A DNA stretch of 64,000 bases. Origin: Candidatus Komeilibacteria bacterium CG11_big_fil_rev_8_21_14_0_20_36_20 (GTDB lineage Bacteria; Patescibacteriota; Patescibacteriia; UBA1558; GWA2-36-10). This document shows positions 25,837 to 50,190 of the stretch, piece after piece. How positions within the stretch are numbered: the stretch's first letter is position 1; every line of letters begins with the position of its first letter. The stretch covers positions 31,296-95,295 of the forward strand of contig PCWQ01000007.1 of assembly GCA_002787405.1 (NCBI GenBank). Reading direction: 5' to 3'. The notes beneath the pieces are model-generated. The model was not told the origin of the DNA. It searched no databases and saw nothing but the letters and a program-made list of their open reading frames with translations. The position numbers were made by a program, and so were the translations under genes.

Positions 25837-25841
25837 ACAAA

Positions 25842-31672: not shown

Positions 31673-32863
31673 TTATGACACAAAATCTACTATCTTGTCC
31701 ACTCTGTTCTGCCAAGTATAATTCTGCACCTTATTATAAGCTTGCTTGGCTATTTTTTCACTTAACATGTCATCATTGAGCACTACTTTAATTTTCTCAG
31801 CCAAATCTTTTGGATTATCCGGTTGGAAGAAAACACAGTTTTCTGAATCCAAAACTTCTCTGGCGCTAGGCAAATCAGAGCTGACAATTGGTCTTTGCAT
31901 CGCCATATATTCAAATAACTTCAAAGGTGAAGTATATAATCTTGAAATATCATTTTTCGCAGAATTAGGCAACACCAAAATATCAGCCGCTCTCAAATAT
32001 AAAGGCACCTCCTCATGGGGCTTGCGTCCAGCTATTAAAATATTTTTATGCTTATTATTTTTTTCCTTAAATTTTATAATATCTTCATCTGTACCTCCAA
32101 GAAAAATAATTAATTCCTTTTCTGACAAAAAACCTGCTGCGTCCGCTAAAATCTGCGCGCCCTTCCAGTCATATAAATGTCCCGAATAAAGAATTACTTT
32201 TTTATCTAGTGGAAATTTTAATAAACTTCTTATTTCTTCTTTACTTTTTTGATCACCTGAAAATAGTTCTAAATCCACTCCATCCGGAGCAACAATTATT
32301 TTATCTCTACTTAATCCTAAATTAATCAATTCACTTTTTAAACCATTACTAATCGTGATAATACCCGCGCACTTCTTCCAGTATTTTAAATAATACTTAT
32401 GATGTTGCGGTAAATCATGACACTCCCAATAAACTTTACTGGAAAATAATTGCAACACCGGCAATAAATATTCATCTCGTGTATAAAATATTTTATCTTT
32501 CTTATTTTTCAAAAAAATAAAATAGAAAAATAATCTTACAATAAAAAATAAGGATTGAAACTTTATATAGGTGCCCGCTGGAAATTTTAAAAGAAAACGC
32601 GGATCAATCGTCCAAAGTTTTCTAATTTTAAAATTTTCTTCAATTTTATAATAATCAAAAATATTCTCTTTACTAAAAGATGGATTTTTTCTTTTTGGCA
32701 AAATTAATGTCAAATCAATATTTCGAACAGCAAAAAGATGGCACATTTTTAATATCTGTAAACCATGCGCCTTCTCTGTGGGAATTCTTGAATTTGCTAT
32801 GTATAATAATTTCACCGCGCTAGAAATTTCACTTTTATTACTTCTTATTTTTTCCATAGTCAA
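31673..32863 (-). CDS. family 4 glycosyltransferase
   Basis: A 396-aa GT4-like protein whose C-terminus ([13 protein letters not shown]) is shared with the remnant at 29993..30157. Confidence 0.75.
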
Positions 32864-32894
32864 TGATGGTTATCCCCGTGATTTCTAACGGGGT

Positions 32895-34742
32895 TCACAT
32901 CTTATACTTTTTATACCAAATCTGAAAATTAATCAAAGACCAAACAGTGTTCAAGGCATATTCCTTTTGGCTAATATGATTATCCAAAATTACTTTTATT
33001 GCCTCAAAATTAAACAATTCTTTTGTTTCTGGATTATAATCCGGTGATAAAACCTCATAGGCCATATTTTTCATGCCCGTCCTTAACCACTTGGCGGTTG
33101 GCGCAAAAAATCCTCTCTTCTTCTGATTATACACAAAATCAGGAATATATTCTTTCAAAGCTTGTTTGAAAATTAATTTACCTTGTTCGGCACTATTTAT
33201 TTTATATTTACTGGCAATCTTCATAGATAATTCAACTACCTCTTTATCTAAAATAGGCACTCTTTGTTCCACTCCCCAAGCCATACTCATTTTATCTGAT
33301 TGAGCTAAAGACTCGTCAATCAGCCAAGTGTCTATATCTGCTTTCATTAATTTTTTCAAAAAATCATCTGGTTTACCTTTGAAATTATGATCAGCAATAT
33401 ATTCTTTATTGGCTGTTAAATTACTAACTTGAGGATTAAGAAACCGGCTAACCATTTTTTCTTTTTGAGCTCGCCAAGACCAAAAGACATCAAGTGGCGC
33501 AGTTAAATTCAGTTTATTATAATTCTTTTGTTTGCCTGATAAAGCAAAAATTTTTTCAATTAAACCATTCTGGCGCAGAACTTTTGGCATCCTCTGCCAG
33601 CGACGAATTAAATTATAATAATAATAACGATCATAACCACCAAATAATTCATCACCTCCATCACCACCAAGCACAACCTTGATGCCCTCTTGTTTAGTAA
33701 ACTTAGATAAAAGAAAAATTGAAATTTGGGTAGGGTTGGCTACCAAATCATCCATATGCCAAATGACCTCCTCTAAATTATCCAAAACATCCTGCGACTT
33801 AATAATCAGCTCATGATGCTCCGTCTGATAATGTTTAGCCGTCTGACGGGCCAAAAGATAATCACTATTAAATTTATCCTGTTCCACGTCTATATCAAAG
33901 CCAACGGAAAAGGTCTGAATTGGCTGATCAGTAAATTCCGACATCAAACCCAAAACTACTGTTGAGTCAATGCCACCTGATAAAAACATGCCAACCGGCA
34001 CATCGGCAATCATTTGTCGTTTAACTGCGGCTTTTAGCGTCTCTCTAATTTTATCAATTGACTCCTCTCTATTAAAACTATCTTCGTAATCCTCTATTTG
34101 CCAATATTTTTGAATATTAATTTTATTATTTTTTAAGACTAAATAACTAGCCGGTGGTAATTTATAAATATTCTGCCAAATTGTTTCCGGACCATTAATA
34201 TACAAAAACCTGAAATATAAATTTAGGGCATTAATATTGAGATCTCTTTTAACATCATGTTTTAAAACCGCTTTAATCTCTGAGGAAAAAATAAATTTGG
34301 AACCGTCAAAATAATAGAAAACTGGCTTAACTCCTAAATGATCGCGAGCAATAAACAACTCTTGTTTCTGGTTATCCAAAATAGCTAGAGCAAAAATGCC
34401 ACTAAATTTATTTACACAATCATAGCCCCATTTTCTATAGGCAGCGAGAATAACTTCCGTGTCGCTCTGCGTCTTAAACGGATAAATATCCTTTAATTCT
34501 TTTTTTAATTCACGATAATTATAGATTTCTCCATTAAAAACAATCCCCTGTTTTTTATCAAAACTAAACATTGGTTGGTTTGCTTCTTTTGATAAATCAA
34601 TAATGCTCAAACGATTATGCCCTAAAGAAATATCACTACTAGTAAAAACCCCGGCATCGTCCGGGCCACGATATGAGATTATTTCATTCATATCTAGAAT
34701 TAAGGCCTCATCTTTATAATTAAAACCGTTAATAGAGCACAT
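32895..34742 (-). CDS. asparagine synthetase-like glutamine amidotransferase (AsnB/WbpS-like)
   Basis: The N-terminus MCSINGF provides a Cys2 nucleophile. The PP-loop SGGIDS is present. 615 aa. Confidence 0.85.
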   Translation of the reverse strand: MCSINGFNYKDEALILDMNEIISYRGPDDAGVFTSSDISLGHNRLSIIDLSKEANQPMFSFDKKQGIVFNGEIYNYRELKKELKDIYPFKTQSDTEVILAAYRKWGYDCVNKFSGIFALAILDNQKQELFIARDHLGVKPVFYYFDGSKFIFSSEIKAVLKHDVKRDLNINALNLYFRFLYINGPETIWQNIYKLPPASYLVLKNNKINIQKYWQIEDYEDSFNREESIDKIRETLKAAVKRQMIADVPVGMFLSGGIDSTVVLGLMSEFTDQPIQTFSVGFDIDVEQDKFNSDYLLARQTAKHYQTEHHELIIKSQDVLDNLEEVIWHMDDLVANPTQISIFLLSKFTKQEGIKVVLGGDGGDELFGGYDRYYYYNLIRRWQRMPKVLRQNGLIEKIFALSGKQKNYNKLNLTAPLDVFWSWRAQKEKMVSRFLNPQVSNLTANKEYIADHNFKGKPDDFLKKLMKADIDTWLIDESLAQSDKMSMAWGVEQRVPILDKEVVELSMKIASKYKINSAEQGKLIFKQALKEYIPDFVYNQKKRGFFAPTAKWLRTGMKNMAYEVLSPDYNPETKELFNFEAIKVILDNHISQKEYALNTVWSLINFQIWYKKYKM

Positions 34743-34743
34743 T

Positions 34744-35553
34744 TTACAAAGAATTATACAATTTACTAATTATTTTTTGTGCATCTTCATCTACATTTAG
34801 ATATTTAGTTACAACTATTCGTAAAAATCTGATAGCTACCAAAGTGATATAAATAATAAAAAACCATTTTAAGAAATGACTACTATTAAAGAAATCAACA
34901 ACGTAAACCAGTAAAAACATAAATATCATTAAATCATTTCTAGCGATGATAGTTGAAAATTTAAGAATCTTTAATAGCTTTAATAATGCTCTATTAGCTG
35001 GTGTGATTTTCCTTTCCTGATTATGATATTGCCTAACCCATTCTATCTTCTTGAAAAACAACATAAAATAGATAAAAGTTGAGCTGATAGTATTAAAAAT
35101 AATTAAAACTACAACTAAAAGAGTTAAAAATAGATAAATATTGTCTTGATAAGTAAAAAATAATTTTAGTCCCAGACCAGTTAAAATACTCGGCATAAAA
35201 ACAAAATGGTAAACTTGTTCTAATAATCCCCCCCTTAAGGTGTCTCTTTTTAGATAACGAGCTAATTCCCCATCAACCTTATCCAAAAGAATACTCAGAA
35301 TAATTAAAATGAAAGCTAAAATATTTATACGAAAACTATGGTGGCGCAGCGTTAGGCCTCCAAGTATTATTAATATAATATTCAAGACGGAAATAAAATT
35401 AGGGTTTATTTTTTTATTAGTAATTAACAAAAAAAATTTTGTAATGTAAATAGAAATATCACGATATAATAAATATCCTGCCATACTAAACTTGGGTGGT
35501 TTATTTCTTTTACTAGCTTGGCAAATTTCTTTTAACTCTTTAATTGATTCCAT
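34744..35553 (-). CDS. polytopic membrane protein with a degenerate CDP-alcohol phosphatidyltransferase-like motif
   Basis: LDKVDGELARYLKRDTLRGGLLEQVYH matches D-x2-DG-x2-AR-x8-G-x3-(D>E)-x3-(D>H). Confidence 0.4.
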   Translation of the reverse strand: MESIKELKEICQASKRNKPPKFSMAGYLLYRDISIYITKFFLLITNKKINPNFISVLNIILIILGGLTLRHHSFRINILAFILIILSILLDKVDGELARYLKRDTLRGGLLEQVYHFVFMPSILTGLGLKLFFTYQDNIYLFLTLLVVVLIIFNTISSTFIYFMLFFKKIEWVRQYHNQERKITPANRALLKLLKILKFSTIIARNDLMIFMFLLVYVVDFFNSSHFLKWFFIIYITLVAIRFLRIVVTKYLNVDEDAQKIISKLYNSL

Positions 35554-36875
35554 TACTTTGTATATCTAAAATTAATTATAGGTGTTAAACTAAAAATTTT
35601 CTTCAAAATATTATTTTTCTCCAAAGCGGTCCAGACATATTCAGCTGCTTGACTCTGCTTTAAACTAACTGATTCTTTGTGCCGGAAAATTGAAAAATTA
35701 ATCTCATTCTTTAAAGCTATTTTTCTAACCTGATGATTAGTGTATTGATTTTTATTTTGCAATTCAGTAGTTGAAAAATTACTAGTGGCTTTTCCATAAC
35801 CATGGTCAGACAATTTTAATATCTCATTATTAGGTATTCCTCGGCCAACATAACTTTTCAAATTATATAACCCTGACAAAACCACCGGCTGATCATCCTT
35901 GACTAAATTAGCATTATTGGCATAAAGAAAATAAATACTGTCTTCTTTTTTTATTTCTTTGACAAAATCATGAGTGTGATCCGAAAAATAATTTAGATCA
36001 GTAATTTGATTCAAAACATCCTGCAACAACATAAAAGTAGTCAAACGAGTAGCCAAACCGTAATTTATCAAAACCTTAAGCGTATCTCTAAAAATATTAT
36101 AATATTTATTACCTTGATTAAGGCCGATAAATTCTGACCGATAAACTATTTTATTTAAAATTTCTGAATTAAGCACAGAGCTTGGGCCCCCTTGACCCAT
36201 ATGATAAAGAATAAAAATCTGCCCTTCTTTAACTCCCCATTTGCTGGCCTGTTCTTGGTCAAAAATCTCGTCAGCAACTTGAACTTCAATAAAATGATTA
36301 CCTTGCAGAAAACTCCCAATATTATTCCTTAAATATTGATGGCCATTTTTCCAATCATCATTAAAATAATCAAAAATATCTTTATTGATATTTGCTACTT
36401 GGGGAGAATCTACATTAAATATATTATCAACTGATTGTTTAAATTTACTCTGCAAATATGCCGGCCCTTGCAGACACACTTCATAAAACTCCTTCCGACT
36501 TAAAGAATATTTATTAGGCAAAGGACGTCTTAATTTAGAAAATATTCCTTTAATAAGGCCTTTATTAAAATTTAATAAAGCTTTTTCCAGCTTATCTATG
36601 GTCTCGGTGCTATAACTCAGTTCTGTTTTGATTAAAGACTTTCCGCAATTAATATTAACGGCGCTTAATTGGGGATACAAAATATCTCTACTTAGCGAAC
36701 CAAAACTGGATGGGATATATCCTTTGTACCCCATTCTGGCTCCTTCTTTTTTTAAATGTATATCAGGCAAAACTAAGAGCTCTTCTACGCCAGGCAAACT
36801 CGCTATCTCCTGAATTCTTTGCAAAAGTTTTGTTGATAATTTTTCCTTATCAATGGTAAATTTTATATTTGCCAT
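35553..36875 (-). CDS. divergent RtcB-family protein (RNA 3'-phosphate ligase fold) embedded in the glycan operon
   Basis: RtcB motifs were found in order: LPGVEELLVLPDIH (PDxH), AVNINCGKS (the D/N-I-N-C-G metal site), GNHFIEVQ, and HMGQGG in place of HSGSRG. Confidence 0.6.
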   Translation of the reverse strand: MANIKFTIDKEKLSTKLLQRIQEIASLPGVEELLVLPDIHLKKEGARMGYKGYIPSSFGSLSRDILYPQLSAVNINCGKSLIKTELSYSTETIDKLEKALLNFNKGLIKGIFSKLRRPLPNKYSLSRKEFYEVCLQGPAYLQSKFKQSVDNIFNVDSPQVANINKDIFDYFNDDWKNGHQYLRNNIGSFLQGNHFIEVQVADEIFDQEQASKWGVKEGQIFILYHMGQGGPSSVLNSEILNKIVYRSEFIGLNQGNKYYNIFRDTLKVLINYGLATRLTTFMLLQDVLNQITDLNYFSDHTHDFVKEIKKEDSIYFLYANNANLVKDDQPVVLSGLYNLKSYVGRGIPNNEILKLSDHGYGKATSNFSTTELQNKNQYTNHQVRKIALKNEINFSIFRHKESVSLKQSQAAEYVWTALEKNNILKKIFSLTPIINFRYTK

Positions 36876-36880
36876 AAATC

Positions 36881-37954
36881 TTACTTTTTATATAAATCTA
36901 CAATTTCTTTAGATAATACTTCCAAATTTTGATGATGCTGAATATATTGACTTAAAGACAGTAATAACCCCCCTGAACTTTCATTGATAGCTTTGATCAC
37001 TTTATCCGCCATATCTTTATGGTCGTATATATATAATGAAGGATGCAGAGAGTTTAAAATATCTTCAAAAGCAACATTAGAAGATATTACTAAAGTTCCG
37101 CAACTCATTGCTTCTAGAACATTTTTATCTAAACTGCCGGTCTTGCTAAAATTTAAGAAAATATCTGCCTCCTGATAGAACTTAGGGGTATTAACATTGG
37201 AAACCGAGCCGACAAATTCCACACTGTCCTCTAGATTAAAACTCTTCACGTTTTTCTTTAATTCCTCCAGATAAATTTTATCCCCAGCCAAACTTGGCGC
37301 GCCCACAATTTTTAATAAAACTGGCTTGGACAATTTTTGCCTTAACTCACGAACTAAGTCAATCATCAATTGAATATTTTTAGTTGGTGAAATCCGACTG
37401 ACGGATAATAAAATTAATTTTTCTTTATTAATTGTCTCTTTAAAATAAAAAATGTCACTATCAATACCATGATGCATGACGATTAATTTTTTGCTCGGCA
37501 AACGGAAACTTTCTTTAGATGCTGTAACCATTACATCCGAAAGCATATTTAATAGCCGCAGCTTCCAGTTAACGCCCTTGTGTGTATACCAAGCTATTAA
37601 TTTTTTTCTAAAAATTTTAGCCCAAGGGGCAATCAAAATGCCATACTCCGGATTTTGATGGGCAAAAACGCCATCCACTTTTGGCAATAATCTGACTGCT
37701 AACCGCTGAAACTGCCAAAACTCTTGCCAACGATTTTTACCTTTTTCCTTACCTAAAGAATAAACTCTAATATTATCCGGCAAGCCGCTATCATTGCCTT
37801 TTTCCAAACAAATAACGTAAAGTTTATCCAAGTTAGCGGCTATTTTTTTAATCCAATTATAAGTAAAACCGGCCAAACCGTCATCTTGATCTACTCTTCT
37901 AGTAATCATTAATAATTTCATCTTGGTAATTTTTGCTCTATAATATCTTCCCAA
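36881..37954 (-). CDS. family 4 glycosyltransferase
   Basis: The GT4 C-terminal domain reads NVLEAMSCGTLVISSNV. Confidence 0.8.
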   Translation of the reverse strand: MGRYYRAKITKMKLLMITRRVDQDDGLAGFTYNWIKKIAANLDKLYVICLEKGNDSGLPDNIRVYSLGKEKGKNRWQEFWQFQRLAVRLLPKVDGVFAHQNPEYGILIAPWAKIFRKKLIAWYTHKGVNWKLRLLNMLSDVMVTASKESFRLPSKKLIVMHHGIDSDIFYFKETINKEKLILLSVSRISPTKNIQLMIDLVRELRQKLSKPVLLKIVGAPSLAGDKIYLEELKKNVKSFNLEDSVEFVGSVSNVNTPKFYQEADIFLNFSKTGSLDKNVLEAMSCGTLVISSNVAFEDILNSLHPSLYIYDHKDMADKVIKAINESSGGLLLSLSQYIQHHQNLEVLSKEIVDLYKK

Positions 37955-39057
37955 AATTTAACAATCTGTTCTGTATTATCACTAAATTTTTCCCTCATTA
38001 ACTGACGCCCGTTTTCTCCTAGGCGCTCTGCTTCGGTTGGAGAATTTAATAAATATAAAATTTTATCAGCCATAGCTTGAGCGTCTCCGATCGGCACCAG
38101 CCAGCCGTTATAACCATCTCGCACTATTTCTTTGGCTCCGGTGGTGGCGGTTGCCACAACCGGCTTGCCACAGGCGTTGGCCTCCACTAATACTTTGCCG
38201 AAACTTTCAGAATCTGATGACAAAACAAACAAATCACAATTTCTATATTCTTTCGGTAAATCATCATGATCTTTGGCTCCTAATAATTCTATATAATCTA
38301 AACCAGCTGTTAATTTTTTTATTTTATCTTTTTCAGGCCCCGCACCAGCAATACGAAGTATGATATCCTTTCTTTTCTTATAAACAATCTCTATTGCTTT
38401 TATTAACAAAGGAATATTTTTAACTATTACCAATCGTCCTACCGAAAGAATAATTTTTTTATCTCTACTTTGTTTCTTTTCTACAGGTAAAGAAAACTTC
38501 TGTAAATCAACGGGCGTGGGGATTACTCGAATTTTATTTTCTCTAAGGCCAAAATTAATTAGCTTATCCTTAATGCCTTGACTCATTACCCGAATAGCGT
38601 CCGCTTGCCTAACGACCTTCTGGCCTAAAATCAATAACAAGCGATTATACCAATCTTCTCTCAGCCATAGTTTGTTGTCAAAAAAATCTCCGTGAAAATG
38701 GATTAACAACTGACAATTAAATTTTTTCTTCACCAAAGTGCCAACCAATCCTGTCAAAAAAGGATCCTGCGTCAAAACTAAATCAATTTTATTTTGTAAA
38801 CAAATATTCTTAGCAATCTTCCAGGCATCCCACAAAAAATTTATCTGATTAGCCGAATTAGTCGGATAAACAAAAACATTATGAGATAATTTTTTATTTT
38901 TTAAATTTAAACTTTTCTTAGCATAAGTAATAGAATGAATACTGTTAACATATTTACCATATTCTATATTGCGAATCTGCGCATCACCAAAATCCGGCTG
39001 ATTCATTGCCAAAGTCGGATCCCAGGAAACAGTCAAAATGTTAATTGCTCTAGCCAT
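37918..39057 (-). CDS. family 4 glycosyltransferase
   Basis: The GT4 motif reads FGKVLVEANACGKPVVATATTGAKEIV. Confidence 0.8.
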   Translation of the reverse strand: MARAINILTVSWDPTLAMNQPDFGDAQIRNIEYGKYVNSIHSITYAKKSLNLKNKKLSHNVFVYPTNSANQINFLWDAWKIAKNICLQNKIDLVLTQDPFLTGLVGTLVKKKFNCQLLIHFHGDFFDNKLWLREDWYNRLLLILGQKVVRQADAIRVMSQGIKDKLINFGLRENKIRVIPTPVDLQKFSLPVEKKQSRDKKIILSVGRLVIVKNIPLLIKAIEIVYKKRKDIILRIAGAGPEKDKIKKLTAGLDYIELLGAKDHDDLPKEYRNCDLFVLSSDSESFGKVLVEANACGKPVVATATTGAKEIVRDGYNGWLVPIGDAQAMADKILYLLNSPTEAERLGENGRQLMREKFSDNTEQIVKFWEDIIEQKLPR

Positions 39058-40493
39058 TATGTTTTTCTAATAAGATTATAAATTTTTCTTAAAGCTTTAC
39101 CTAAAACGCCTTTCTGCTCAATGGCGATGCCTGATAAATATTCCACAGCGTAAATATCAAGGGCTAAGCCAAAAAAACGATGACGGATCCTCCACTCAAA
39201 CCAGCTGATCACTGGACCTAATCTCCAATTTAAAAATTTAAAATATTCCCGAATGCGCCAGACCTTTTTAACGTCAGTCCAAGGCGATTCAAAATTCTTG
39301 CGAAAACGATCTATTTTGCCCCAATCCTCGGTTCTGGTTGGCGGCTGAAAACCGCTTTCTATGGCAAAATCATACATTTTTGAACCAGGATAAGGCAAAT
39401 AAGCCCCAAGGGTAAAAACGGCCTGCGGATGAATTTTATAGATTTGATACAATAAATCAATAGTTGACTCAAACTCTTCTTCGGTCTCTGTCGGCAGTCC
39501 AACAATCACCGAATAGCTGGCCGGCAAATCGTATTTTTTTAAGATTTTCACTGCTTCAATTATTTTGTCTGTCGTGAATTTTTTGTCTATTAACTTCAAT
39601 AAACGGTTACTGCCAGATTCAACGCCAATAAGCATATCAAACACCCGATACTCTTTTAATTTCGCCGCTACCTCATCATTAATGGAATCAATCCTAATCT
39701 CCAGATGGGAAGGCAGATTAATGCGTTCTAATATTTCCAGAGCCCGATACTTATTAACAAAAAAATTATCATCATAAAATTTAATGGCGTCAATATTGTA
39801 TTTTTCTTTTAAAAAGTTAATATCCTCAACCACCGCATCAATAGACCAAGTGCGCCATTTATTTTTATTAAAGGCATTATTATAACAAAAAGCACAATTA
39901 AAAGGACAACCGCGGGAACTTTTATAAGCAATCGCCCTTTTATACTTTCCTAAAGGGAAAATAAATTTAGACATGTCAATTAAAGAAAAATCTAAACGGT
40001 ATTGATCAAGATTTTCTATAAAAGGCCGCCAAGGATTAATCACCGGCTGATTATTCTTTTTATAACCAACGCCCAACACTCCTTCCATTTCTTTCTGATC
40101 TACAATCCGCTGGGTAAACTCAACCACACTGATTTCACCCTCGGAAATAATAACATAATCAATATAATCTTCCTGCAGACATTGTTCTGGTAAAAGTGAA
40201 GGATGGATACCGCCCCACAAAACAGGAATGGAACTTTTGGCTTTAATCCTTTGTGATAACTCGGCGCTGTGTTGAGTTTGGATACCGGTCATGATCGACA
40301 AACCAAAATATAACGGCTTTTCTTTAACAATATAATCAGCCGTGTCATTAATTTCTTTTTCAGTAATATTAATCAACTCTACCGTAAAACCTGCTTCTTT
40401 TAGAGCACTGCCCACGCATAAAATCCCCATTGGCAGAATCTTCTCTGAATGATCTTGACTATAATTAATTTGCGCTAAAATAATCTTAGGCAT
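39057..40493 (-). CDS. cobalamin-binding radical SAM enzyme
   Basis: A B12-binding-like N-terminal domain is followed by CPFNCAFCY. Confidence 0.8.
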   Translation of the reverse strand: MPKIILAQINYSQDHSEKILPMGILCVGSALKEAGFTVELINITEKEINDTADYIVKEKPLYFGLSIMTGIQTQHSAELSQRIKAKSSIPVLWGGIHPSLLPEQCLQEDYIDYVIISEGEISVVEFTQRIVDQKEMEGVLGVGYKKNNQPVINPWRPFIENLDQYRLDFSLIDMSKFIFPLGKYKRAIAYKSSRGCPFNCAFCYNNAFNKNKWRTWSIDAVVEDINFLKEKYNIDAIKFYDDNFFVNKYRALEILERINLPSHLEIRIDSINDEVAAKLKEYRVFDMLIGVESGSNRLLKLIDKKFTTDKIIEAVKILKKYDLPASYSVIVGLPTETEEEFESTIDLLYQIYKIHPQAVFTLGAYLPYPGSKMYDFAIESGFQPPTRTEDWGKIDRFRKNFESPWTDVKKVWRIREYFKFLNWRLGPVISWFEWRIRHRFFGLALDIYAVEYLSGIAIEQKGVLGKALRKIYNLIRKT

Positions 40494-40498
40494 ATTCT

Positions 40499-41941
40499 CT
40501 ACTTGGTGACAAATTTCTTAGCTAGTTTAAATTCTAATGGAAAAGCAAAAAACTTTAATTTCCATCTCAACTTGCATAAGAGCACAAAAACTAATTTAAT
40601 CAATTTTTGCGCCTTAATGCTGGAGCCCATCGCGCTACTGATACTATGCGCGCCAAATCTAACATAGGCCTCCATTGATTCCACAAAATCTTTATGCTTG
40701 ACCCAAGGAAAATTTTGGACAGTTAAATAACTTAATTCATTTTCTACTAAGTGCGCCCATGCTTCTGAGTTTTGTGGAGCTTTCCAGCCAGCGGCCAAAC
40801 ATTCCTGATATAATTCTGATCCAGGATATGGCCGAAAAGCTTGTGGGCCTAAAATCTGCACTTTATTATCTAATTTAATCAACTTGTCAATCAAATCCAA
40901 GGTCATTCTCATATCTTTTTTGGATTCACCGGGCAAACCAATCATAAAAGAATATTGCGGGATAATATCATATTTTAAACACATCTTAGCTGAATGTAAA
41001 ATTTCCGCCGGTGTAATATCTTTTTTAATTTTTTTTAAGATAATCGGACTACCTGACTCCGCGCCAAAAGATAATAAATAACAACCTGACCTTTTCAGTT
41101 TTGCCATTAACTGATCATCAATCCTTCCTTCTCTAATATAATTAGCCCTGACTGTTGTTTCCCAAGGAATAGTTAATCCTTTTGCAATCATACCTTCGAT
41201 AATTTTCTTTGATCTTTCAATATCCACAAAAAAATTTTCGTCCCAAAAACGCAATCTCTTACCTTTAAAATAATCTTTCTCCTTAATTATTTTGATATCT
41301 TCCAAAACCTGCCCCACTGTGCGATATCTCCACCTATTCTTCAAAATGGCATTAATACAAAAAGTACATCTGTGTGGACATCCTCTCGAAGTTAAAGAAG
41401 GAATGATATCTAATTTATACAAAATACTCTTAGGCATTAGATCCCATTTAAATAAAGGCATCTTGGCCGGATCATGTAATTCCTGAGGCGGATTAATAAC
41501 AATGCTGCTATCTTTATAGGCAATGCCTTGAATTTTATTTAAATCCTTATGACTGGCGATCTCATACAAAGTATGTTCTCCCTCACCCACACAAACAATA
41601 TCCACTAAGGGATGGTCAATGGTCTGCTCAACAAAAAATGTTGGGTGCGAGCCCCCCCAAATAATCGTGCAGTCTGGCTTAATATCCTTAATAAATTTAC
41701 TAACTTCCAAAGCATTGGAAATTTGAGTGGTCATCACGGAAATGCCAGCATAATCACAGTCAACAATCTTTTCTTTTATTAAATCAAAATAATTCTTTTC
41801 ACGAGCACCATCAACAATCTCCACCGGCATGTCTTTACTATTCAAATAACTAGCTAAACTTAACAAGCCAACCGAAATTGAGCTGTCATAATTTTCTTTG
41901 GCAATATTAAAAGGTGGATTGATTAATAAAACTTTACTCAT
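40499..41941 (-). CDS. cobalamin-binding radical SAM enzyme
   Basis: A B12-binding-like N-terminal domain is followed by CPHRCTFCINA. Confidence 0.8.
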   Translation of the reverse strand: MSKVLLINPPFNIAKENYDSSISVGLLSLASYLNSKDMPVEIVDGAREKNYFDLIKEKIVDCDYAGISVMTTQISNALEVSKFIKDIKPDCTIIWGGSHPTFFVEQTIDHPLVDIVCVGEGEHTLYEIASHKDLNKIQGIAYKDSSIVINPPQELHDPAKMPLFKWDLMPKSILYKLDIIPSLTSRGCPHRCTFCINAILKNRWRYRTVGQVLEDIKIIKEKDYFKGKRLRFWDENFFVDIERSKKIIEGMIAKGLTIPWETTVRANYIREGRIDDQLMAKLKRSGCYLLSFGAESGSPIILKKIKKDITPAEILHSAKMCLKYDIIPQYSFMIGLPGESKKDMRMTLDLIDKLIKLDNKVQILGPQAFRPYPGSELYQECLAAGWKAPQNSEAWAHLVENELSYLTVQNFPWVKHKDFVESMEAYVRFGAHSISSAMGSSIKAQKLIKLVFVLLCKLRWKLKFFAFPLEFKLAKKFVTK

Positions 41942-41942
41942 G

Positions 41943-43097
41943 CTACACTTCTTTTAACAATTTTACTGTTTCATTAATTGTATTTTCCCAATTAAATTTC
42001 TTTAAAGTTAACTTAGCATTATTAACTAAATTATCAGCAAATTGTTCATCACTTAATATTTTGATAGCTGCATTCTTTAATTCTTCAATATTATTATAAC
42101 CAATTAATAAACCATTTCTATGATTCTCAATAACTTCCGGGTTACCTCCAATATTAGTTGTAATGATTGGAACGGCTGCTTTAATAGCTTCTAATAAAGT
42201 ATGTGATAAACCTTCATAATTTGTATTTAAAACAAATAGATCTGCTGCCTTAAAATAATTGATAATTTCATCATGTCTAATTCTGCCCAGAAAATGAACA
42301 CTATCGGCAACGTTGAATTCATTGGCTAGATGCTTTAAATTATCCATTTCCGGACCATCTCCCAAAACAAGAAAATTAACGTTACCTATTTTTTGTTTAA
42401 TCTGTGGTAAGGATTTGATAATCCCATCAACTCCTTTCCAGCGGGTAAGCCGACAGGCGGTAACAATTATCTCTGCATCCTGACCATATTGTTTTTTAAT
42501 TTCTTCAACTTTATCTAGTTGAACAACGTTGTCTTTAATAAAATCTATGGAATTATAAATAACTTTAATTCTATCTTTATCAACACCAATTTTTTCAGCG
42601 ATCATGGCAATAAAATTACTAACGGCAATAATTCTATTGGCATTAACCAAAATTTTCTGCCTTCTCTTTTTTAACCTTTCAATCTGATCATTATAAACCT
42701 TATCCTGAAAATCAACGATGTAATCCTGAGTCCAACCGCTGGCTACGGCCATCTCCCAAGCTCCGTCACCGGCAAAACGCACAATATATTTCTTACCGGT
42801 CATCTTTTTAATTAAGTAAGCAAAATATCCGACGCTATAAGTATCGGTAACATAAATTAAATCTGCCTGGCGTGACAATCTGAACATCTTCCATAAATAC
42901 TGCCAACGGCTAAAAAATTTATTTTTGACAATTCTAAAAACTTCTTCCCTATCATTATTATGTTTTTTAATATTGGAATAAGTAATTATCTGTACACTTA
43001 AACCTTTCTCCTTTAAAGAATAGGAAAGGGCTTCCAAAATTGTTGCTGGTCCTCCAATATCCGGCGGATAAATACCTGTTGCGATTAAAATTTTCAT
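41943..43097 (-). CDS. family 4 glycosyltransferase
   Basis: The GT4 C-terminal domain reads EGLSHTLLEAIKAAVPIITTNIGGNPEVI. Confidence 0.8.
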   Translation of the reverse strand: MKILIATGIYPPDIGGPATILEALSYSLKEKGLSVQIITYSNIKKHNNDREEVFRIVKNKFFSRWQYLWKMFRLSRQADLIYVTDTYSVGYFAYLIKKMTGKKYIVRFAGDGAWEMAVASGWTQDYIVDFQDKVYNDQIERLKKRRQKILVNANRIIAVSNFIAMIAEKIGVDKDRIKVIYNSIDFIKDNVVQLDKVEEIKKQYGQDAEIIVTACRLTRWKGVDGIIKSLPQIKQKIGNVNFLVLGDGPEMDNLKHLANEFNVADSVHFLGRIRHDEIINYFKAADLFVLNTNYEGLSHTLLEAIKAAVPIITTNIGGNPEVIENHRNGLLIGYNNIEELKNAAIKILSDEQFADNLVNNAKLTLKKFNWENTINETVKLLKEV

Positions 43098-43202
43098 AAT
43101 TTCTATTTATAATTTATAGTAGCAACCCTGAGCGACCTCGAGTCTGTGAAGAGGGAGTCGAAGGGTGGCGATTAAAATTTTCATAATTTCTATTTATAAT
43201 TT
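43081..43202. repeat. 35-bp perfect direct repeat (43081..43115 and 43168..43202) flanking a 52-bp GC-rich insert
   Basis: The sequence gcgattaaaattttcataatttctatttataattt occurs twice. It contains the start codon plus 18 nt upstream of the GT4 gene at 41943..43097. The intervening sequence is about 60% GC in a background of about 30% GC. Confidence 0.85.
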
Positions 43203-43923
43203 TCTTAAAAATACACACTAATGCTTGACCATAATTTTTAAACATAGGCAGTTTACAAAAATAATTATCAATAGTATGAATAAACTTATTAGAAAACCAA
43301 AATCTTGGTATCTTTAAATAATGAAGTGGAGGAAACAAAGTGCTGGCTCTGGAATCAACTAAAACGAAGTTTTGCTTCTCCATAATCTCAATCCATTTTC
43401 TTAATTTAAAATCATATTGATGTTGATTAGGGTCCCACCCTTCTTTATAAACCGTCTTGCCTTTTCTTCTAATAATTTTACGCCCGACAAATCGAAATAA
43501 ATTTTCCCATTTATCATGCATGGCCGGAAAAGTAATTAATACTTCTCCATCATCTTTTAATAACCTATAAATCTCACTTACTAACTTATCTGGATTAATA
43601 ACGTGCTCGATAATATCAATAGCAATACATTTATCAAAGGGTTCATCTAAAGGTAAATCTTCTACATTGGCTTCCCTGGCCTCAAAATTATCTATTTCAT
43701 AATATTCCATCAATTTTCGGGCGGTTTCTAAACTCTTAGAATTTATATCAACGCCTACCATTCTCTTAAAATTTCCTTTGTAGGTCAGCGCCTGTACACC
43801 GTCACCACAACCAACATTCAACACGGAATCTTCTTTGTTGATTGGAAAAAATTCTGGATAAATAACCCCCGATGTTAATTTCCCTTTTTTAAATTCAAAG
43901 TCTGGATATTTTCTTTCTCGCAT
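43114..43923 (-). CDS. class I SAM-dependent methyltransferase
   Basis: LNVGCGDGVQALTY and LKDDGEVLITFP are present. The last 17 aa or so are encoded by the GC-rich insert and the second repeat copy. Confidence 0.7.
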   Translation of the reverse strand: MRERKYPDFEFKKGKLTSGVIYPEFFPINKEDSVLNVGCGDGVQALTYKGNFKRMVGVDINSKSLETARKLMEYYEIDNFEAREANVEDLPLDEPFDKCIAIDIIEHVINPDKLVSEIYRLLKDDGEVLITFPAMHDKWENLFRFVGRKIIRRKGKTVYKEGWDPNQHQYDFKLRKWIEIMEKQNFVLVDSRASTLFPPLHYLKIPRFWFSNKFIHTIDNYFCKLPMFKNYGQALVCIFKKIINRNYENFNRHPSTPSSQTRGRSGLLL

Positions 43924-43925
43924 GA

Positions 43926-45068
43926 TTATCTTTTCATATTTTGGAAAATAATCTTCATTTTAGCGGCAACGCTGTCCCAAGAATATTTTTCTAAAACAAG
44001 CTGGCGACCGTTATCAGCAATCCGCTGATATAAATCTTTATCCCTGACATATCTCTCTACGGCCTGGCCAATACTAACTGGATTTCTAACTTTACAAAAA
44101 ACTCCGGTTTCTCCATCTTTTAAAAAATCGGGAATTCCACCTACCTCTGTGCCAATAATCGGCGTGCCAAGCACCATCGCTTCCAAAAAAGAATTACCTA
44201 GTCCCTCTGATAAAGACGGGCGGATAAAAATATCAGACATTTCCACATATTTTGGCAATTGACTGTGCTCCATATAACCTAAGAATAAAACATGGTCGGC
44301 TATACCAAGCTTCTTGGCCAGATTTTTCAATTCCTCTTCATCTGGTCCAGTGCCTAAAATAATCAATTTGGCTTTAATCCCACTTTTAAACAACAAAAAA
44401 TTCATAGATTTAATCAAATCATCTAAACCGTTTTTTAAAGCCAAACGCGAAGTAGTGATGAGTACAGTTTGATCAGGGCTAATGCCTAATTCACTTTTCA
44501 TTTTCTCTTTTTCCTCCACCGACAAAGTGTTTTTAAAAACATTAAAATCAACTCCATTGGGGATTAAGACTATTTCTCCTTTATTACCCTCTTTCCTAGA
44601 ACGTTTGGCTAAAAATTTACTAATCGCCTGGGTAATTTTAGCCCGACGGTAAATTCTCTTATATAAAAAACTCCAAAACCAAGTTCTCTTTCTTAAAAAT
44701 TCATCGCTGTCTCCGCTTTGTAAAGTTAAAAGATAAGAAACTTTGATTCGGTATTTCAAAAACAAAGCAGCCAGGCCAGCATAAAAAGCCATCATACTCC
44801 AAGCAAAATCAAATTTAATTCGTCGATGGAGTTTAACCGCATAGGCAACAGCTCGAAAAGGAAATAGATATTTATCGATTTTTTTGCCTTGGCCCAGACG
44901 ATAAATATAAACCTGGCCGATTTTTTCCTGCTCCGGCCATTGGGCGTCGAATTTATTAGTAATTAAATGATATTCATTTTCCGGCAAACGATCGGTTATT
45001 TCTTTAATCGCTATTTCTGCTCCGCCGACAAAAGGATAATAGGCAATGGAAAATATTAAGATTTTCAT
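43926..45068 (-). CDS. family 4 glycosyltransferase
   Basis: The GT4 C-terminal domain reads EGLGNSFLEAMVLGTPIIGTEVGGIPDFL. Confidence 0.8.
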   Translation of the reverse strand: MKILIFSIAYYPFVGGAEIAIKEITDRLPENEYHLITNKFDAQWPEQEKIGQVYIYRLGQGKKIDKYLFPFRAVAYAVKLHRRIKFDFAWSMMAFYAGLAALFLKYRIKVSYLLTLQSGDSDEFLRKRTWFWSFLYKRIYRRAKITQAISKFLAKRSRKEGNKGEIVLIPNGVDFNVFKNTLSVEEKEKMKSELGISPDQTVLITTSRLALKNGLDDLIKSMNFLLFKSGIKAKLIILGTGPDEEELKNLAKKLGIADHVLFLGYMEHSQLPKYVEMSDIFIRPSLSEGLGNSFLEAMVLGTPIIGTEVGGIPDFLKDGETGVFCKVRNPVSIGQAVERYVRDKDLYQRIADNGRQLVLEKYSWDSVAAKMKIIFQNMKR

Positions 45069-45142
45069 AAAACAAGACTTGCTTTACCTTATTAAATACT
45101 ATAAAATTATACCAGTATTTACGAAATAAATCAATTGATAAA

Positions 45143-46342
45143 ATGCCTAATCTTAGCAAAAAAGATAAATTAAAAAACCAAAAAATCCTCTTCTTAATCA
45201 CCCAAACTAAGTGGGGTGGAGCCCAGAAGTATGTTTTAGAATTGGCTGAATACTTTAGCCAAAACAATGAAATTCACCTGACCTATGGAGAAACTGATAA
45301 TATTAACCAGCAGTTTCTAAATTATTGTAAAGAATTAAAAATCAAAACCATACCAATCCCCACTTTACACAGGAAAATAAATTTTACCAAAGATTTCCTA
45401 GCCATAGTCGATACGCTCAAAATTTTGAATAAAGAAAATTATAATTTAATTCACCTCAATAGTTCTAAAGCTAGTTTTGTCGGCAGCGTGGCTGCTAAAA
45501 TGTACAGCTATAACCCAGCCAACACAAAAACGCGGGTTGTTTACACGGCTCATGGCTTTGTCTTCAATGAACCATTGTCTAAAATAAGAAAAAAGGCATA
45601 TATCTTTTCAGAAAAAATAGCGGCTGCTTTTCAATATTTAATCATTGCTGTTTCTGAAACCGACCGGCAAAGTGCTATTGACCAGCAAATATGTAATCCT
45701 AATAAAATTTTCACCGTGCACAACGGCTTGAATTTTGATAAATATAATTTTTATAGTAAAGAAGAAGCCAGAAATAAATTAAATTTATCAGCAGATAAAA
45801 AATATTTTGGCACGATTGCCAGCTTTTATGAAACTAAGGGCTATGAATATTTAGTAGAAGCCATTAAAATACTGCGAAATAAACAGTCTCAAATCTTAAA
45901 AAATTATCAGTGGGTCTTAATTGGTGAAGGACCAAATCTAGAAAAAATAAAAAAACAAGTCGCAGACAATAATTTGTCTCCCTACATTAAATTTATTCCT
46001 GCTCAAGATAATGACTGGAAATTTTTAAAAGCTTTTGACTGTTTTATTTTGCCTTCAATCAAAGAAGGCCTGCCTTATACTATTCTGGAAGCTGGCTTAG
46101 CTCAAATTCCGATCATTGCCACCAAAGTTGGCGGTCTTCCTGAAATCATTACCAATGAAAAAACCGGCTTATTGATAACGCCGGCTAATCCTCTCTCTTT
46201 AGCGCAAGCTATGGAAAAAATGTCTCAAGATCATGATCTCTCTGAAAAATTTGCAGAAAGCAACTATCAAAATATTAAAAATAATTTTAATCTCCAAAAT
46301 ACTTTAGATAAGACTGAAGAACTATATTTAAAATTATTTTAA
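45143..46342 (+). CDS. family 4 glycosyltransferase
   Basis: EGLPYTILEAGLAQIPIIATKVGGLPEII. This is the only plus-strand gene in the right half of the cluster, divergent from 43926..45068. Confidence 0.8.
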   Translation: MPNLSKKDKLKNQKILFLITQTKWGGAQKYVLELAEYFSQNNEIHLTYGETDNINQQFLNYCKELKIKTIPIPTLHRKINFTKDFLAIVDTLKILNKENYNLIHLNSSKASFVGSVAAKMYSYNPANTKTRVVYTAHGFVFNEPLSKIRKKAYIFSEKIAAAFQYLIIAVSETDRQSAIDQQICNPNKIFTVHNGLNFDKYNFYSKEEARNKLNLSADKKYFGTIASFYETKGYEYLVEAIKILRNKQSQILKNYQWVLIGEGPNLEKIKKQVADNNLSPYIKFIPAQDNDWKFLKAFDCFILPSIKEGLPYTILEAGLAQIPIIATKVGGLPEIITNEKTGLLITPANPLSLAQAMEKMSQDHDLSEKFAESNYQNIKNNFNLQNTLDKTEELYLKLF

Positions 46343-46908
46343 CCTTCGAGGTCGATTTCAACTAATCTTCTGATATAAACATCTAAATTCTTAGTATACT
46401 CTTGAAAGTCAACTAGATAATCCTGGTTGACTAATTTAAATTTTGCTCGATGAATATAATCATAATGGGAGCTGTAGAGCCAATCATTAATATTCTTTGT
46501 TAACTTATGTTTAAGCGGATTTAGATTAATATAACTAATGACAGTCTCAAGATAATTATCATCTTCGACAAGTTTAGACTTAAATGAACCCGCAAAAATT
46601 CTCCCTGAATGCTCTTTATGTATATTAAAATATTTACTATAAGAATTAGATAAAAGTGAAATAAAACGAGATATAGCTGATGATTCGACCTTCGAGGTCA
46701 AATCCGGCTCTTGCAATAGAAAATGCCAATGGTTGGGCATTACGCAATAAGCTAGAATTTTAACATGCGTTTTTTCTTTATAAAATAAAGCTTTTTCAAG
46801 AAAATAAGTATAATCTTGCTCCGTATAAAAAATAGTCCTTTTTTCCACCGCACGATTATAAATATGGTGGATAGTATTGGGGAAAAAATTTCTTGGTTTA
46901 TTAGGCAT
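46339..46908 (-). CDS. IS200/IS605-family Y1 (HUH) transposase-like protein, probably a REP-associated tyrosine transposase (RAYT)
   Basis: The HUH motif reads CVMPNHWHFLLQ. A C-terminal WLYSSHYDY (W-x-SS...Y) is present. 189 aa. The gene is flanked by palindromic repeats. Confidence 0.75.
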   Translation of the reverse strand: MPNKPRNFFPNTIHHIYNRAVEKRTIFYTEQDYTYFLEKALFYKEKTHVKILAYCVMPNHWHFLLQEPDLTSKVESSAISRFISLLSNSYSKYFNIHKEHSGRIFAGSFKSKLVEDDNYLETVISYINLNPLKHKLTKNINDWLYSSHYDYIHRAKFKLVNQDYLVDFQEYTKNLDVYIRRLVEIDLEG

Positions 46909-46919
46909 AAAACAAAATC

Positions 46920-46950
46920 AACCTCGAAGGTTGTTTCAACCTTCGAGGTT
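46920..46950. repeat. REP-like hairpin: 13-bp perfect stem (aacctcgaaggtt / aaccttcgaggtt) with a 5-nt loop, immediately 5' of the RAYT gene
   Basis: Inverted repeat verified by eye. Related copies of aaccttcgaggtc lie at 46341..46355, 46686..46700 and 47023..47036. Confidence 0.8.
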
Positions 46951-47033
46951 ATAAATCAAAAATAAAAAAACCGCTTTTCTTCATATGTAAAATAATATCC
47001 AAATCTTACAATATTGTCAACCAACCTTCGAGG

Positions 47034-49307: not shown

Positions 49308-49314
49308 ATTTAAT

Positions 49315-50019: not shown

Positions 50020-50117
50020 AAAATAAAACTTAATAATATGACCTCGCTAGATTTTGTGAATTTCTAACGGGGTTCATAATACTTGTCTATTGTATTATAT
50101 CTGCTTATATTTGACAA

Positions 50118-50147
50118 CACCCTTCCCCCTTTACAGGGGGAAGGGTG
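50118..50147 (-). terminator. candidate intrinsic terminator hairpin downstream of the surface-protein gene
   Basis: A 12-bp GC-rich stem (cacccttccccc / gggggaagggtg) with a 6-nt loop lies about 45-70 nt 3' of the stop at 50191. On the minus strand it is followed by a T-rich stretch. Confidence 0.5.
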
Positions 50148-50190
50148 AATTGTCTATCTCTAATTACTTATTGCAAGTAAAAAGATTTTC

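What the first reader, a model, noticed from the sequence alone, without database searches (positions are those of the whole stretch)
39057..41941. Second tandem pair of cobalamin-binding radical SAM enzymes, flanked by GT4 genes
These are paralogs of 14987..18150 (CPFNCAFCY and CPHRCTFCINA), again in tandem. They are embedded between glycosyltransferases and a methyltransferase (43114..43923).

The duplication into two pairs suggests sub-functionalised modifications on different sugars of the repeat unit.
Basis: seen in the sequence. Interest (0 to 1): 0.7.

Follow-up and report, generated by a model that had tools for sequence, protein, structure and literature searches.

The report
Two B12 radical SAM glycan-tailoring genes
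Two neighbouring genes for cobalamin-type radical SAM enzymes sit in the middle of a sugar-chain assembly operon that is conserved across the tiny-celled Patescibacteria; they are real and old sister genes whose chemistry is untested, and they are not a copy of the window's other such pair.

Summary
39057..40493 (R1, 478 aa) and 40499..41941 (R2, 480 aa), both on the minus strand, encode B12-binding-domain + radical SAM proteins with intact CX3CX2C and cobalamin-pocket motifs. Their predicted folds match solved class B radical SAM enzymes. GT4 glycosyltransferases flank them, and a class I methyltransferase lies one gene upstream.

The duplication story fails. R1 and R2 are each other's nearest relatives (32% identity). 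The first pair (R3 and R4, 14987..18150) is 24-27% identical to them. Bootstrapped trees give R1R2|R3R4 in 197 of 200 replicates, so no two-gene unit was duplicated.

R1 and R2 each belong to a large, strongly conserved (60-79% identity) and uncharacterised Patescibacteria family. They sit in a syntenic operon: GT4d-[MT]-GT4c-R2-R1-[MT]-GT4a-GTb. R1 is the constant member. R2 is present in 19 of 36 loci. R1-MT and MT-GT4-R1 fusion proteins exist.

The best reading is tailoring enzymes for a membrane-linked surface glycan. C-methylation of a sugar is the most likely reaction, but this is unproven. No curated family cut-off is met. This is an ordinary-to-moderately interesting new member of a known enzyme class.

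The parts
39057..40493 (-). R1: class B (B12-binding domain + radical SAM) enzyme, 478 aa; the constant member of the conserved module
40499..41941 (-). R2: class B radical SAM enzyme, 480 aa; sister paralog of R1 and an accessory member of the module
   Evidence: PF04055 72.6 bits and PF02310 58.8 bits. CPHRCTFC at residue 188. G66xSxM70, W95GG97 and G119EGE122 are conserved in 16 orthologs. AF2 pLDDT 84.5. Foldseek: MgmA 1.7e-20, then OxsB, TsrM, CysS and AprD4. More than 120 ortholog clusters at 68-77% identity. An ortholog is present in 19 of 36 R1 loci.
41943..43097 (-). GT4c: GT4 glycosyltransferase immediately upstream of R2 (1-nt gap)
   Evidence: Glycos_transf_1 144.5 bits plus Glyco_transf_4. 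Syntenic in most loci. Fused between a methyltransferase and R1 in L009.
43114..43923 (-). Class I SAM-dependent methyltransferase
   Evidence: Methyltransf_31/11/23/25. No NCBIfam cut-off is met. Orthologs at 60-81% identity in Patescibacteria. An ortholog directly follows R1 in L011, L018, L023 and L033. It is fused C-terminally to R1 in P0052 and P0074.
43926..45068 (-). GT4d: first gene of the co-directional array; divergent from GT4e (45143..46342, +)
   Evidence: Glycos_transf_1 141.4 bits. Syntenic. Promoter-like site 45134..45106 on the minus strand lies in the divergent intergenic region; this is a consensus match only.
37918..39057 (-). GT4a: GT4 glycosyltransferase whose start overlaps the R1 stop by 1 nt
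   Evidence: Glycos_transf_1 158.5 bits. A GT gene lies directly downstream of R1 in 23 of 30 loci with enough flank.
36881..37954 (-). GTb: glycosyltransferase with only the C-terminal GT1-type domain detected
   Evidence: Glycos_transf_1 85.6 bits. It follows GT4a in most syntenic loci.
31673..36875 (-). Downstream genes of the same tight array: RtcB-like (35553..36875), CDP-alcohol phosphatidyltransferase (34744..35553), AsnB-type amidotransferase (32895..34742), GT4 (31673..32863)
   Evidence: Pfam hits. Gaps or overlaps between successive genes are 31 nt or less (coordinates). AsnB and GT4(31673) homologs recur in syntenic loci.
14987..18150 (-). R3 and R4: the first pair. Same enzyme class but different deep lineages; not the source or the copy of R1/R2
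   Evidence: Domains. 24-27% identity to R1 and R2. Tree and bootstrap. Neighbours are NeuB, a cytidylyltransferase-dehydrogenase fusion, GT2 and methyltransferases.

Best explanation
R1 and R2 are two anciently diverged sister paralogs of the class B (cobalamin-dependent) radical SAM enzymes. They are co-transcribed in the middle of an operon of six or seven GT4 glycosyltransferases. That operon builds a cell-surface glycan on a membrane-bound carrier in a Patescibacteria (Komeilibacteria-like) genome.

Shown here:
- The domain architecture, the Fe-S and cobalamin-pocket motifs and the fold.
- Tight operon packing.
- Conservation of the GT4c-(R2)-R1-GT4a-GTb module across Patescibacteria.
- Fusion proteins joining R1 to the methyltransferase and to GT4c.

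Inferred:
- Each enzyme cleaves SAM reductively to a 5'-deoxyadenosyl radical, abstracts a hydrogen from an unactivated carbon of a sugar residue of the growing lipid-linked glycan, and completes the reaction with cobalamin.
- The most likely reaction is methyl transfer from methylcobalamin, giving a C-methyl-branched sugar, as in GenK, GenD1 and MoeK5.
- R1 performs the core modification. R2 performs a second, dispensable one at another position or on another sugar.
- The class I methyltransferase adds a conventional O- or N-methyl group to the same intermediate.
For: Class membership: Pfam domains, CX3CX2C, invariant GxSxM, WGG and EGE cobalamin-pocket motifs (motif definitions from PMC9204698), and predicted folds nearest to CysS, TsrM, AprD4, MgmA, OxsB and TokK.

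Operon: eleven co-directional genes span 31673..45068 with gaps of 31 nt or less. The R1 stop overlaps the GT4a start.

Conserved glycan context: 36 loci, mostly Patescibacteria, plus Elusimicrobia (52% identity) and Thermoleophilia (42%). The order is GT4d-[MT]-GT4c-R2-R1-[MT]-GT4a-GTb, and a GT lies directly downstream of R1 in 23 of 30 loci.

Physical coupling: R1-MT fusions P0052 and P0074, and an MT-GT4c-R1 triple fusion of 1178 aa in L009.

R1 is core and R2 accessory: R2 orthologs occur in 19 of 36 loci. In several loci GT4c abuts R1 directly.

Membrane-linked glycan: a Bac_transf phosphoglycosyltransferase, two Wzy_C proteins and an ABC exporter are in the window.

Lipid-linked substrates are plausible: the R1 and R2 C-terminal ~100 residues are basic (net +10 and +8) and aromatic-rich. 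The nearest NCBIfam models include enzymes that act on lipid-attached sugars or lipids, namely HpnJ, BchE, the ladderane protein and HpnR.

Precedent: most annotated class B enzymes are methylases, and sugar C-methylases are known (GenK, GenD1, MoeK5) (PMC9204698).
Against: No biochemical or genetic data exist for either family. Literature searches found nothing on them.

No curated equivalog cut-off is approached. The best scores are 138-150 bits against cut-offs of 481-578, so the reaction type cannot be transferred by homology.

The substrate (sugar, lipid carrier or protein) is inferred from gene context only.

Patescibacteria are generally thought unable to make cobalamin (background knowledge, not tested here). 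That leaves open whether cobalamin is really the cofactor.
Confidence: 0.45

Rival explanations
1. R1 and/or R2 use radical chemistry on a lipid-linked sugar without methyl transfer. Candidates are ring contraction or carbocycle formation (HpnJ, Cds or OxsB type), dehydration/deoxygenation (AprD4 type), or epimerisation.
For: HpnJ is R2's best NCBIfam model (150.4 bits, E 7.5e-44, covering residues 58-427). AprD4, which acts on the aminoglycoside sugar paromamine, is among the top structural and sequence neighbours of both proteins. HpnJ and calditol synthase are described as radical SAM enzymes that remodel a sugar head group attached to a lipid (PMC13459092). A separate class I methyltransferase in the operon could supply all the methylation that is needed.
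Against: HpnJ's cut-off is 577.6 bits, so membership fails. No hopanoid genes are in the window. The cobalamin-pocket motifs are strictly conserved. From my own recollection, not checked here, AprD4 does not use cobalamin. Most characterised class B enzymes are methylases (PMC9204698).
Confidence: 0.25
2. The enzymes modify the lipid part rather than the sugar, for example by methylating or cyclising a polyprenyl carrier or a glycolipid anchor. This would be like the lipid-directed class B enzymes HpnP, HpnR, GrsA, GrsB and Gmm.
For: Several of the nearest curated models are lipid-modifying enzymes: the ladderane-lipid protein, HpnR and HpnJ. A CDP-alcohol phosphatidyltransferase lies in the same operon. 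The C-terminal tails are basic and aromatic, as expected for membrane-surface binding. B12-binding-domain radical SAM enzymes that act on membrane lipids are well documented (PMC13459092).
Against: The invariant neighbours are glycosyltransferases. R1 is fused to a GT4 domain in L009, which points to the sugar just added. The CDP-alcohol transferase is not part of the conserved core in the other loci.
Confidence: 0.12
3. One reading: the two tandem pairs arose by duplication of a two-gene unit, followed by sub-functionalisation.
For: All four proteins share the same two-domain architecture and are homologous. Both pairs are tandem and lie near class I methyltransferases.
Against: Cross-pair identities are 24-27%, against 31.8% within pair 2. 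R3-R4 is the weakest pair at 24.7%. The quartet topologies this model requires appear in 3 of 200 and 0 of 200 bootstraps. R1 and R2 orthologs at 60-79% identity are spread across Patescibacteria, usually without any R3 or R4 ortholog nearby.
Confidence: 0.03

Closest known systems
Class B (cobalamin-dependent) radical SAM enzymes with solved structures: CysS (9N1B), TsrM (6WTE), MgmA (9CCB), TokK (7KDX), OxsB (5UL2)
   Different: Sequence identity is only 15-22%. The known substrates are peptides, proteins, carbapenem or nucleotide intermediates, none of them glycans. R1 and R2 are shorter (about 480 aa) and have their own conserved basic, aromatic C-terminal tail.
Sugar-directed class B C-methylases of natural-product pathways: GenK and GenD1 (gentamicin), MoeK5 (moenomycin, a lipid-linked glycan), Fom3
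   Same: They are B12-type radical SAM enzymes encoded beside glycosyltransferases that methylate unactivated carbons. Moenomycin clusters also carry AsnB-like amidotransferases (from my own recollection); this operon has one at 32895..34742. The enzyme list is from PMC9204698.
   Different: No sequence model for these enzymes was available to test membership. The context here is a conserved envelope-glycan operon of Patescibacteria, not an antibiotic cluster. No product is known.
HpnJ (TIGR03471), hopanoid-associated radical SAM protein
   Same: It is R2's best curated hit, at 150 bits across nearly the full length. It is thought to act on a sugar (glucosamine) attached to a lipid (PMC13459092).
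   Different: The score is far below the 577.6-bit cut-off. No hopanoid genes are nearby. HpnJ's own reaction is unproven.
AprD4 (NF033070; PDB 6FD2), radical SAM 1,2-diol dehydratase of apramycin biosynthesis
   Different: The scores are 68 and 45 bits against a cut-off of 500. R1 and R2 keep the cobalamin-pocket motifs.
WsaE-type multidomain methyltransferase-glycosyltransferase enzymes of S-layer glycan synthesis (from my own recollection)
   Same: A methyltransferase domain is fused to glycosyltransferase domains so that methylation is coupled to chain extension or termination. The L009 MT-GT4-R1 fusion has the same logic.
   Different: WsaE has no radical SAM domain. The parallel is architectural only and was not tested by sequence.

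Membership tests
Radical SAM superfamily | CX3CX2C [4Fe-4S] motif and a PF04055 domain above the gathering score | tested here: met
   CPFNCAFC (R1) and CPHRCTFC (R2). PF04055 scores 97.9 and 72.6 bits against a cut-off of 29.5. A GxESGS (GGE-type) motif is conserved.
Class B (cobalamin-dependent) radical SAM | N-terminal B12-binding (PF02310) Rossmann domain preceding the radical SAM barrel | tested here: met
   PF02310 scores 65.7 and 58.8 bits against a cut-off of 32.1, at residues 20-125 and 23-128.
Class B (cobalamin-dependent) radical SAM | Cobalamin-pocket motifs: downstream Gly-X-Ser-X-Leu-type, GG and GE (as defined in PMC9204698) | tested here: met
   R1: G64-L-S-I-M68, W93-G-G95, E118-G-E120. 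R2: G66-I-S-V-M70, W95-G-G97, G119-E-G-E122. These are invariant or nearly so in 15 and 16 orthologs (motif definitions). The fifth residue is Met, not Leu.
Class B (cobalamin-dependent) radical SAM | Three-domain fold superimposable on solved class B enzymes | tested here: met
Class B (cobalamin-dependent) radical SAM | Actual cobalamin binding and cobalamin-dependent turnover | not testable with these tools
   This needs purified protein. AprD4 shows that the fold alone does not guarantee cobalamin use.
HpnJ (TIGR03471) | Score at or above the curated equivalog cut-off (577.6 bits), plus hopanoid gene context | tested here: not met
   R2 scores 150.4 bits and R1 108.9 bits. There are no hopanoid genes among the window's annotated ORFs.
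BchE (TIGR02026) | Score at or above 481.35 bits | tested here: not met
   R1 scores 138.1 bits and R2 110.7 bits. JGI's 'anaerobic Mg-protoporphyrin cyclase' names for homologs are therefore over-annotations.
MgmA / MJ_0865 (TIGR04014), PhpK (TIGR04479), AprD4 (NF033070) | Score at or above the curated cut-offs (360, 600 and 500 bits) | tested here: not met
   R1 scores 114.3, 114.4 and 68.2 bits. R2 scores 90.6, 111.3 and 44.6 bits.
Sugar C-methylases GenK, GenD1 and MoeK5 | Orthology to a characterised sugar C-methylase | not tested
   None of the libraries used holds a model or sequence for these enzymes. The link is by analogy only (PMC9204698).
   Pairwise identities. Bootstrap quartets: 197 of 200 for R1R2|R3R4, 3 of 200 for R1R3|R2R4 and 0 of 200 for R1R4|R2R3.

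The most novel reading that the evidence does not exclude
R1 and R2 define two Patescibacteria-wide enzyme families that install radical-derived modifications on the lipid-linked precursor of the cell-surface glycan. These would be C-methyl branches or rearranged (carbocyclic) sugars. Envelope biogenesis in these reduced-genome, likely cobalamin-auxotrophic bacteria would then depend on corrinoids scavenged from hosts or neighbours. Class B radical SAM chemistry would be acting in primary envelope-glycan assembly rather than in secondary metabolism.
Probability: 0.25. Interest if true: 0.65.

Novelty: new member of a known kind. Interest (0 to 1): 0.4.

Why it matters
Patescibacteria have very small genomes, yet this window spends four genes on B12-type radical SAM enzymes inside surface-glycan clusters. 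Two of them, R1 and R2, are conserved at 60-79% identity across many lineages of the phylum, which suggests strong selection on an unknown sugar modification.

If the chemistry is C-methylation or ring rearrangement of a lipid-linked glycan, it would extend class B radical SAM enzymology from antibiotics and cofactors to cell-envelope assembly. It would also tie the envelope of these episymbiotic or ultra-small bacteria to an external supply of corrinoids.

Practically, homologs are currently named 'anaerobic Mg-protoporphyrin cyclase' or 'YgiQ' in public annotations. The curated cut-offs do not support those names.

Tried and rejected
1. Assignment to a curated family. NCBIfam hits for all four proteins fall three- to ten-fold below the equivalog cut-offs (BchE, HpnJ, PhpK, MgmA, AprD4 and others), so no function was transferred.

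2. Duplication of a two-gene unit. Rejected by pairwise identities and bootstrap quartets.

3. An obligate R1-R2 complex. Unlikely, because R1 occurs without R2 in about half of the loci, with GT4c directly abutting R1.

4. Different C-terminal domains in R1 and R2. BLAST stops at about residue 395, which suggested this. The profile-profile alignment shows homology over essentially the full length (436 columns, 30% identity), so the idea was dropped.

5. An obligatory methyltransferase partner. An ortholog lies within 10 kb in only 6 of 36 loci, and fusions are rare. The link is facultative.

6. Literature. Five full-text searches for B12 radical SAM enzymes in Patescibacteria or in surface glycans found no description of these families.

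7. Transmembrane anchoring. There is no hydrophobic segment long enough; the maximum 19-residue Kyte-Doolittle mean is about 1.5. Only a basic, aromatic tail is present.

8. Promoter and terminator scans. Counts are no higher than in shuffled sequence and were used only descriptively.

9. RiPP maturase reading. Considered because many class B enzymes modify peptides. The genes from GT4d to GT4a are separated by 16 nt or less, leaving no room for a precursor-peptide ORF, and all conserved neighbours are glycosyltransferases.


Full report
**What is there**

R1 is 39057..40493 (minus strand, 478 aa). R2 is 40499..41941 (minus strand, 480 aa). They are 5 nt apart.

Each protein carries a single CX3CX2C motif: CPFNCAFC at residue 196 of R1 and CPHRCTFC at residue 188 of R2. 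Only four ORFs in the whole window carry this motif. The other two are R3 (14987..16417) and R4 (16417..18150).

All four proteins hit Pfam Radical_SAM and B12-binding well above the gathering scores. R4 has an extra weak C-terminal TPR match.

The window is 33% G+C. The methyltransferase at 43114..43923 is 100% identical to an NCBI protein of a Candidatus Komeilibacteria MAG (P0241). The source is therefore a Patescibacteria (CPR) genome.

**Class membership**

The review PMC9204698 defines three cobalamin-pocket motifs for structurally characterised class B enzymes: a Gly-X-Ser-X-Leu-type motif, a GG motif and a GE motif. All three are present.
- R1: G64-L-S-I-M68, W93GG95, E118GE120.
- R2: G66-I-S-V-M70, W95GG97, G119EGE122.

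They are invariant or nearly so in alignments of 15 and 16 orthologs.

AlphaFold models built from those alignments are confident, with pLDDT 83.5 and 84.5. Their best matches are solved class B radical SAM enzymes and AprD4:
- R2 by Foldseek: MgmA 1.7e-20, then OxsB, TsrM, CysS, AprD4 and TokK.

Sequence identity to all of these is 15-22%. PDB entry 9CCB is MgmA, the glutamine C-methylase of methyl-coenzyme M reductase (PMC11796369).

No curated NCBIfam equivalog is approached. The best hits are BchE at 138 bits (cut-off 481) for R1 and HpnJ at 150 bits (cut-off 578) for R2.

The proteins are therefore class B radical SAM enzymes of uncharacterised subfamilies. The 'Mg-protoporphyrin cyclase' and 'YgiQ' names carried by homologs in JGI are not supported.

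**Are the four paralogs, and was a pair duplicated?**

All four are homologous, but distantly. R1-R2 share 31.8% identity (E 1e-53). R1-R3, R1-R4, R2-R3 and R2-R4 share 25-27%. R3-R4 share 24.7%.

I built an NJ tree of 71 B12 radical SAM proteins from the window and 36 related loci. It places the R1 orthologs and the R2 orthologs as sister clades. R3 and R4 sit on separate deep branches.

In 200 bootstraps of a 22-sequence subset, the R1 clade and the R2 clade each recur 200 times. The quartet R1R2|R3R4 appears 197 times. The two topologies required by duplication of a two-gene unit appear 3 times and never.

A profile-profile alignment of the R1 and R2 families covers 436 columns at 30% identity, including the C-terminal domain. 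R1 and R2 thus derive from one ancient tandem duplication. They are not copies of R3 and R4.

R3 and R4 also sit in a different functional neighbourhood. Their neighbours are:
- NeuB.
- A cytidylyltransferase-dehydrogenase fusion.
- A PseB-like dehydratase.
- A Capsule_synth protein.
- An ABC exporter.
- A GT2 glycosyltransferase.
- Methyltransferases.
- An aminotransferase.
- A split carbamoyltransferase.

This is a nonulosonic-acid-type sugar sub-cluster.

**Context in the window**

Eleven co-directional genes span 31673..45068, separated by gaps of 31 nt or less or by short overlaps. In transcription order they are:
1. GT4d
2. MT
3. GT4c
4. R2
5. R1
6. GT4a
7. GTb
8. RtcB-like
9. CDP-alcohol phosphatidyltransferase
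10. AsnB-type amidotransferase
11. GT4

The R1 stop overlaps the GT4a start by one base. Upstream lie a divergent GT4e, an IS200-like transposase, a Wzy_C protein and two conserved hypothetical proteins. A Bac_transf phosphoglycosyltransferase and a second Wzy_C protein are at 2.6-6.2 kb. This is the gene set of a glycan assembled on a membrane carrier.

**Conservation elsewhere**

R1 has more than 120 90%-clusters at 63-79% identity. R2 has more than 120 at 68-77%. Wherever a source names the organism, it is Patescibacteria: Parcubacteria, Paceibacterota, Zambryski-, Falkow-, Portnoy-, Buchanan- or Magasanikbacteria.

A scan of one genome per species returned 36 loci with an R1 ortholog. These include an Elusimicrobia MAG (52% identity) and a Thermoleophilia MAG (42%).

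Gene order is strongly conserved: GT4e(-) | GT4d-[MT]-GT4c-R2-R1-[MT]-GT4a-GTb-...-GT4-(another, distant B12 radical SAM).
- A GT lies directly downstream of R1 in 23 of 30 loci with enough flank.
- An R2 ortholog (at least 50% identity) is present in 19 of 36 loci.
- In L007, L008, L012, L020, L022, L024 and L031, GT4c abuts R1 directly. R2 is truly absent there.
- An ortholog of the methyltransferase (at least 45% identity) lies within 10 kb in 6 loci. It directly follows R1 in L011, L018, L023 and L033.

Three fusion proteins link the genes physically:
- P0052 (721 aa) and P0074 (712 aa) are R1 followed by the MT ortholog at 67% identity.
- L009 encodes an uninterrupted 1178-aa ORF made of a class I methyltransferase, a GT4c-like domain and R1.

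Sixteen of the 36 loci carry additional, more distant B12 radical SAM genes. Multiple class B enzymes are thus a general feature of these glycan clusters.

**Mechanistic reading**

The evidence shows two class B radical SAM enzymes co-expressed with, and sometimes fused to, GT4 glycosyltransferases and a class I methyltransferase. They sit in a conserved envelope-glycan operon. R1 is the core member and R2 an optional one.

I infer that they tailor a sugar of the growing lipid-linked glycan at the cytoplasmic membrane face. Neither protein has a transmembrane segment. Their C-terminal ~100 residues are basic (net +10 and +8) and aromatic-rich (18% and 15% F/W/Y). That fits a membrane-surface or pyrophosphate-bearing substrate.

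The most probable chemistry is methylation of an unactivated sugar carbon through methylcobalamin. Most class B enzymes are methylases, and sugar C-methylases (GenK, GenD1, MoeK5) are known (PMC9204698).

This is not established. AprD4, a sugar diol dehydratase, and HpnJ, a putative ring contraction enzyme acting on a lipid-attached glucosamine (PMC13459092), are equally near. A lipid-directed role cannot be excluded either.

**Novelty and score**

Five full-text searches found no description of these families, or of B12 radical SAM enzymes in Patescibacteria or in surface-glycan assembly.

The enzyme class and the idea of radical SAM sugar tailoring are well known, and public annotation already labels these proteins 'B12-binding domain-containing radical SAM protein'. 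I therefore rate the finding as a new member of a known kind, with moderate interest (0.4). Two points give it that value:
- The unusually strong, phylum-wide conservation in reduced genomes.
- The implied corrinoid dependence of envelope synthesis.

The descriptive part is confirmed.

Noticed in passing
window 46339..46951: An IS200-like Y1 transposase gene (189 aa, PF01797) sits between GT4e and the Wzy_C gene, preceded by a perfect 15-bp-stem hairpin at 46951..46919. In the syntenic loci L001, L004 and L005 those two genes are adjacent without it, so this looks like a lineage-specific insertion.
   Followed up: partly
window 9286..11090: A carbamoyltransferase is split into two ORFs in different frames. 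The N-terminal part is 10269..11090 and the C-terminal part is 9286..10254. This could be a frameshift, a pseudogene or a sequencing error.
   Followed up: no
window 34744..36875: An RtcB-like protein (440 aa; PF01139 93 bits; far below the NCBIfam RtcB cut-offs) and a CDP-alcohol phosphatidyltransferase are embedded in the glycan operon. A weak RtcB-like homolog also occurs in locus L031. An RNA-ligase-fold protein in a glycan cluster is unexplained.
   Followed up: no
window 14987..27623: The first radical SAM pair (R3 and R4) lies in a nonulosonic-acid-type sub-cluster. It contains NeuB (22326..23438), a 722-aa CMP-sugar cytidylyltransferase + UDP-Glc/GDP-Man dehydrogenase fusion (18916..21084), a PseB-like dehydratase, a Capsule_synth protein and an ABC exporter. 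R4 has a C-terminal TPR region.
   Followed up: partly
window 47034..53994 and 2625..4739: There are two Wzy_C (O-antigen ligase/polymerase-like) paralogs of 757 and 704 aa, 28.7% identical. The first follows two proteins with no Pfam hit (234 aa and 1267 aa) that are syntenic in L001, L004, L005 and L016. These may be the acceptor or export part of the system.
   Followed up: no
L009 7892..11428; L017 2103..4430; L014 11422..13614: Related loci contain domain fusions: MT-GT4c-R1 (1178 aa), GT4d-GT4c (775 aa), and a 730-aa protein with two GT4-like regions. GT4c orthologs of about 540 aa in L013, L023, L024 and L036 carry an unassigned N-terminal extension of about 150 aa.
   Followed up: partly
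window 31143..31598: A 151-aa ORF matches both dTDP-sugar isomerase (RmlC-like, 75 bits) and the Polysacc_synt_C domain (44 bits). This is an odd combination for so short a protein.
   Followed up: no
window 43114..43923: The methyltransferase ORF is about 30 residues longer at its C-terminus than its orthologs (269 aa against about 240; query coverage about 87%). The unconserved tail is PSTPSSQTRGRSGLLL.
   Followed up: no
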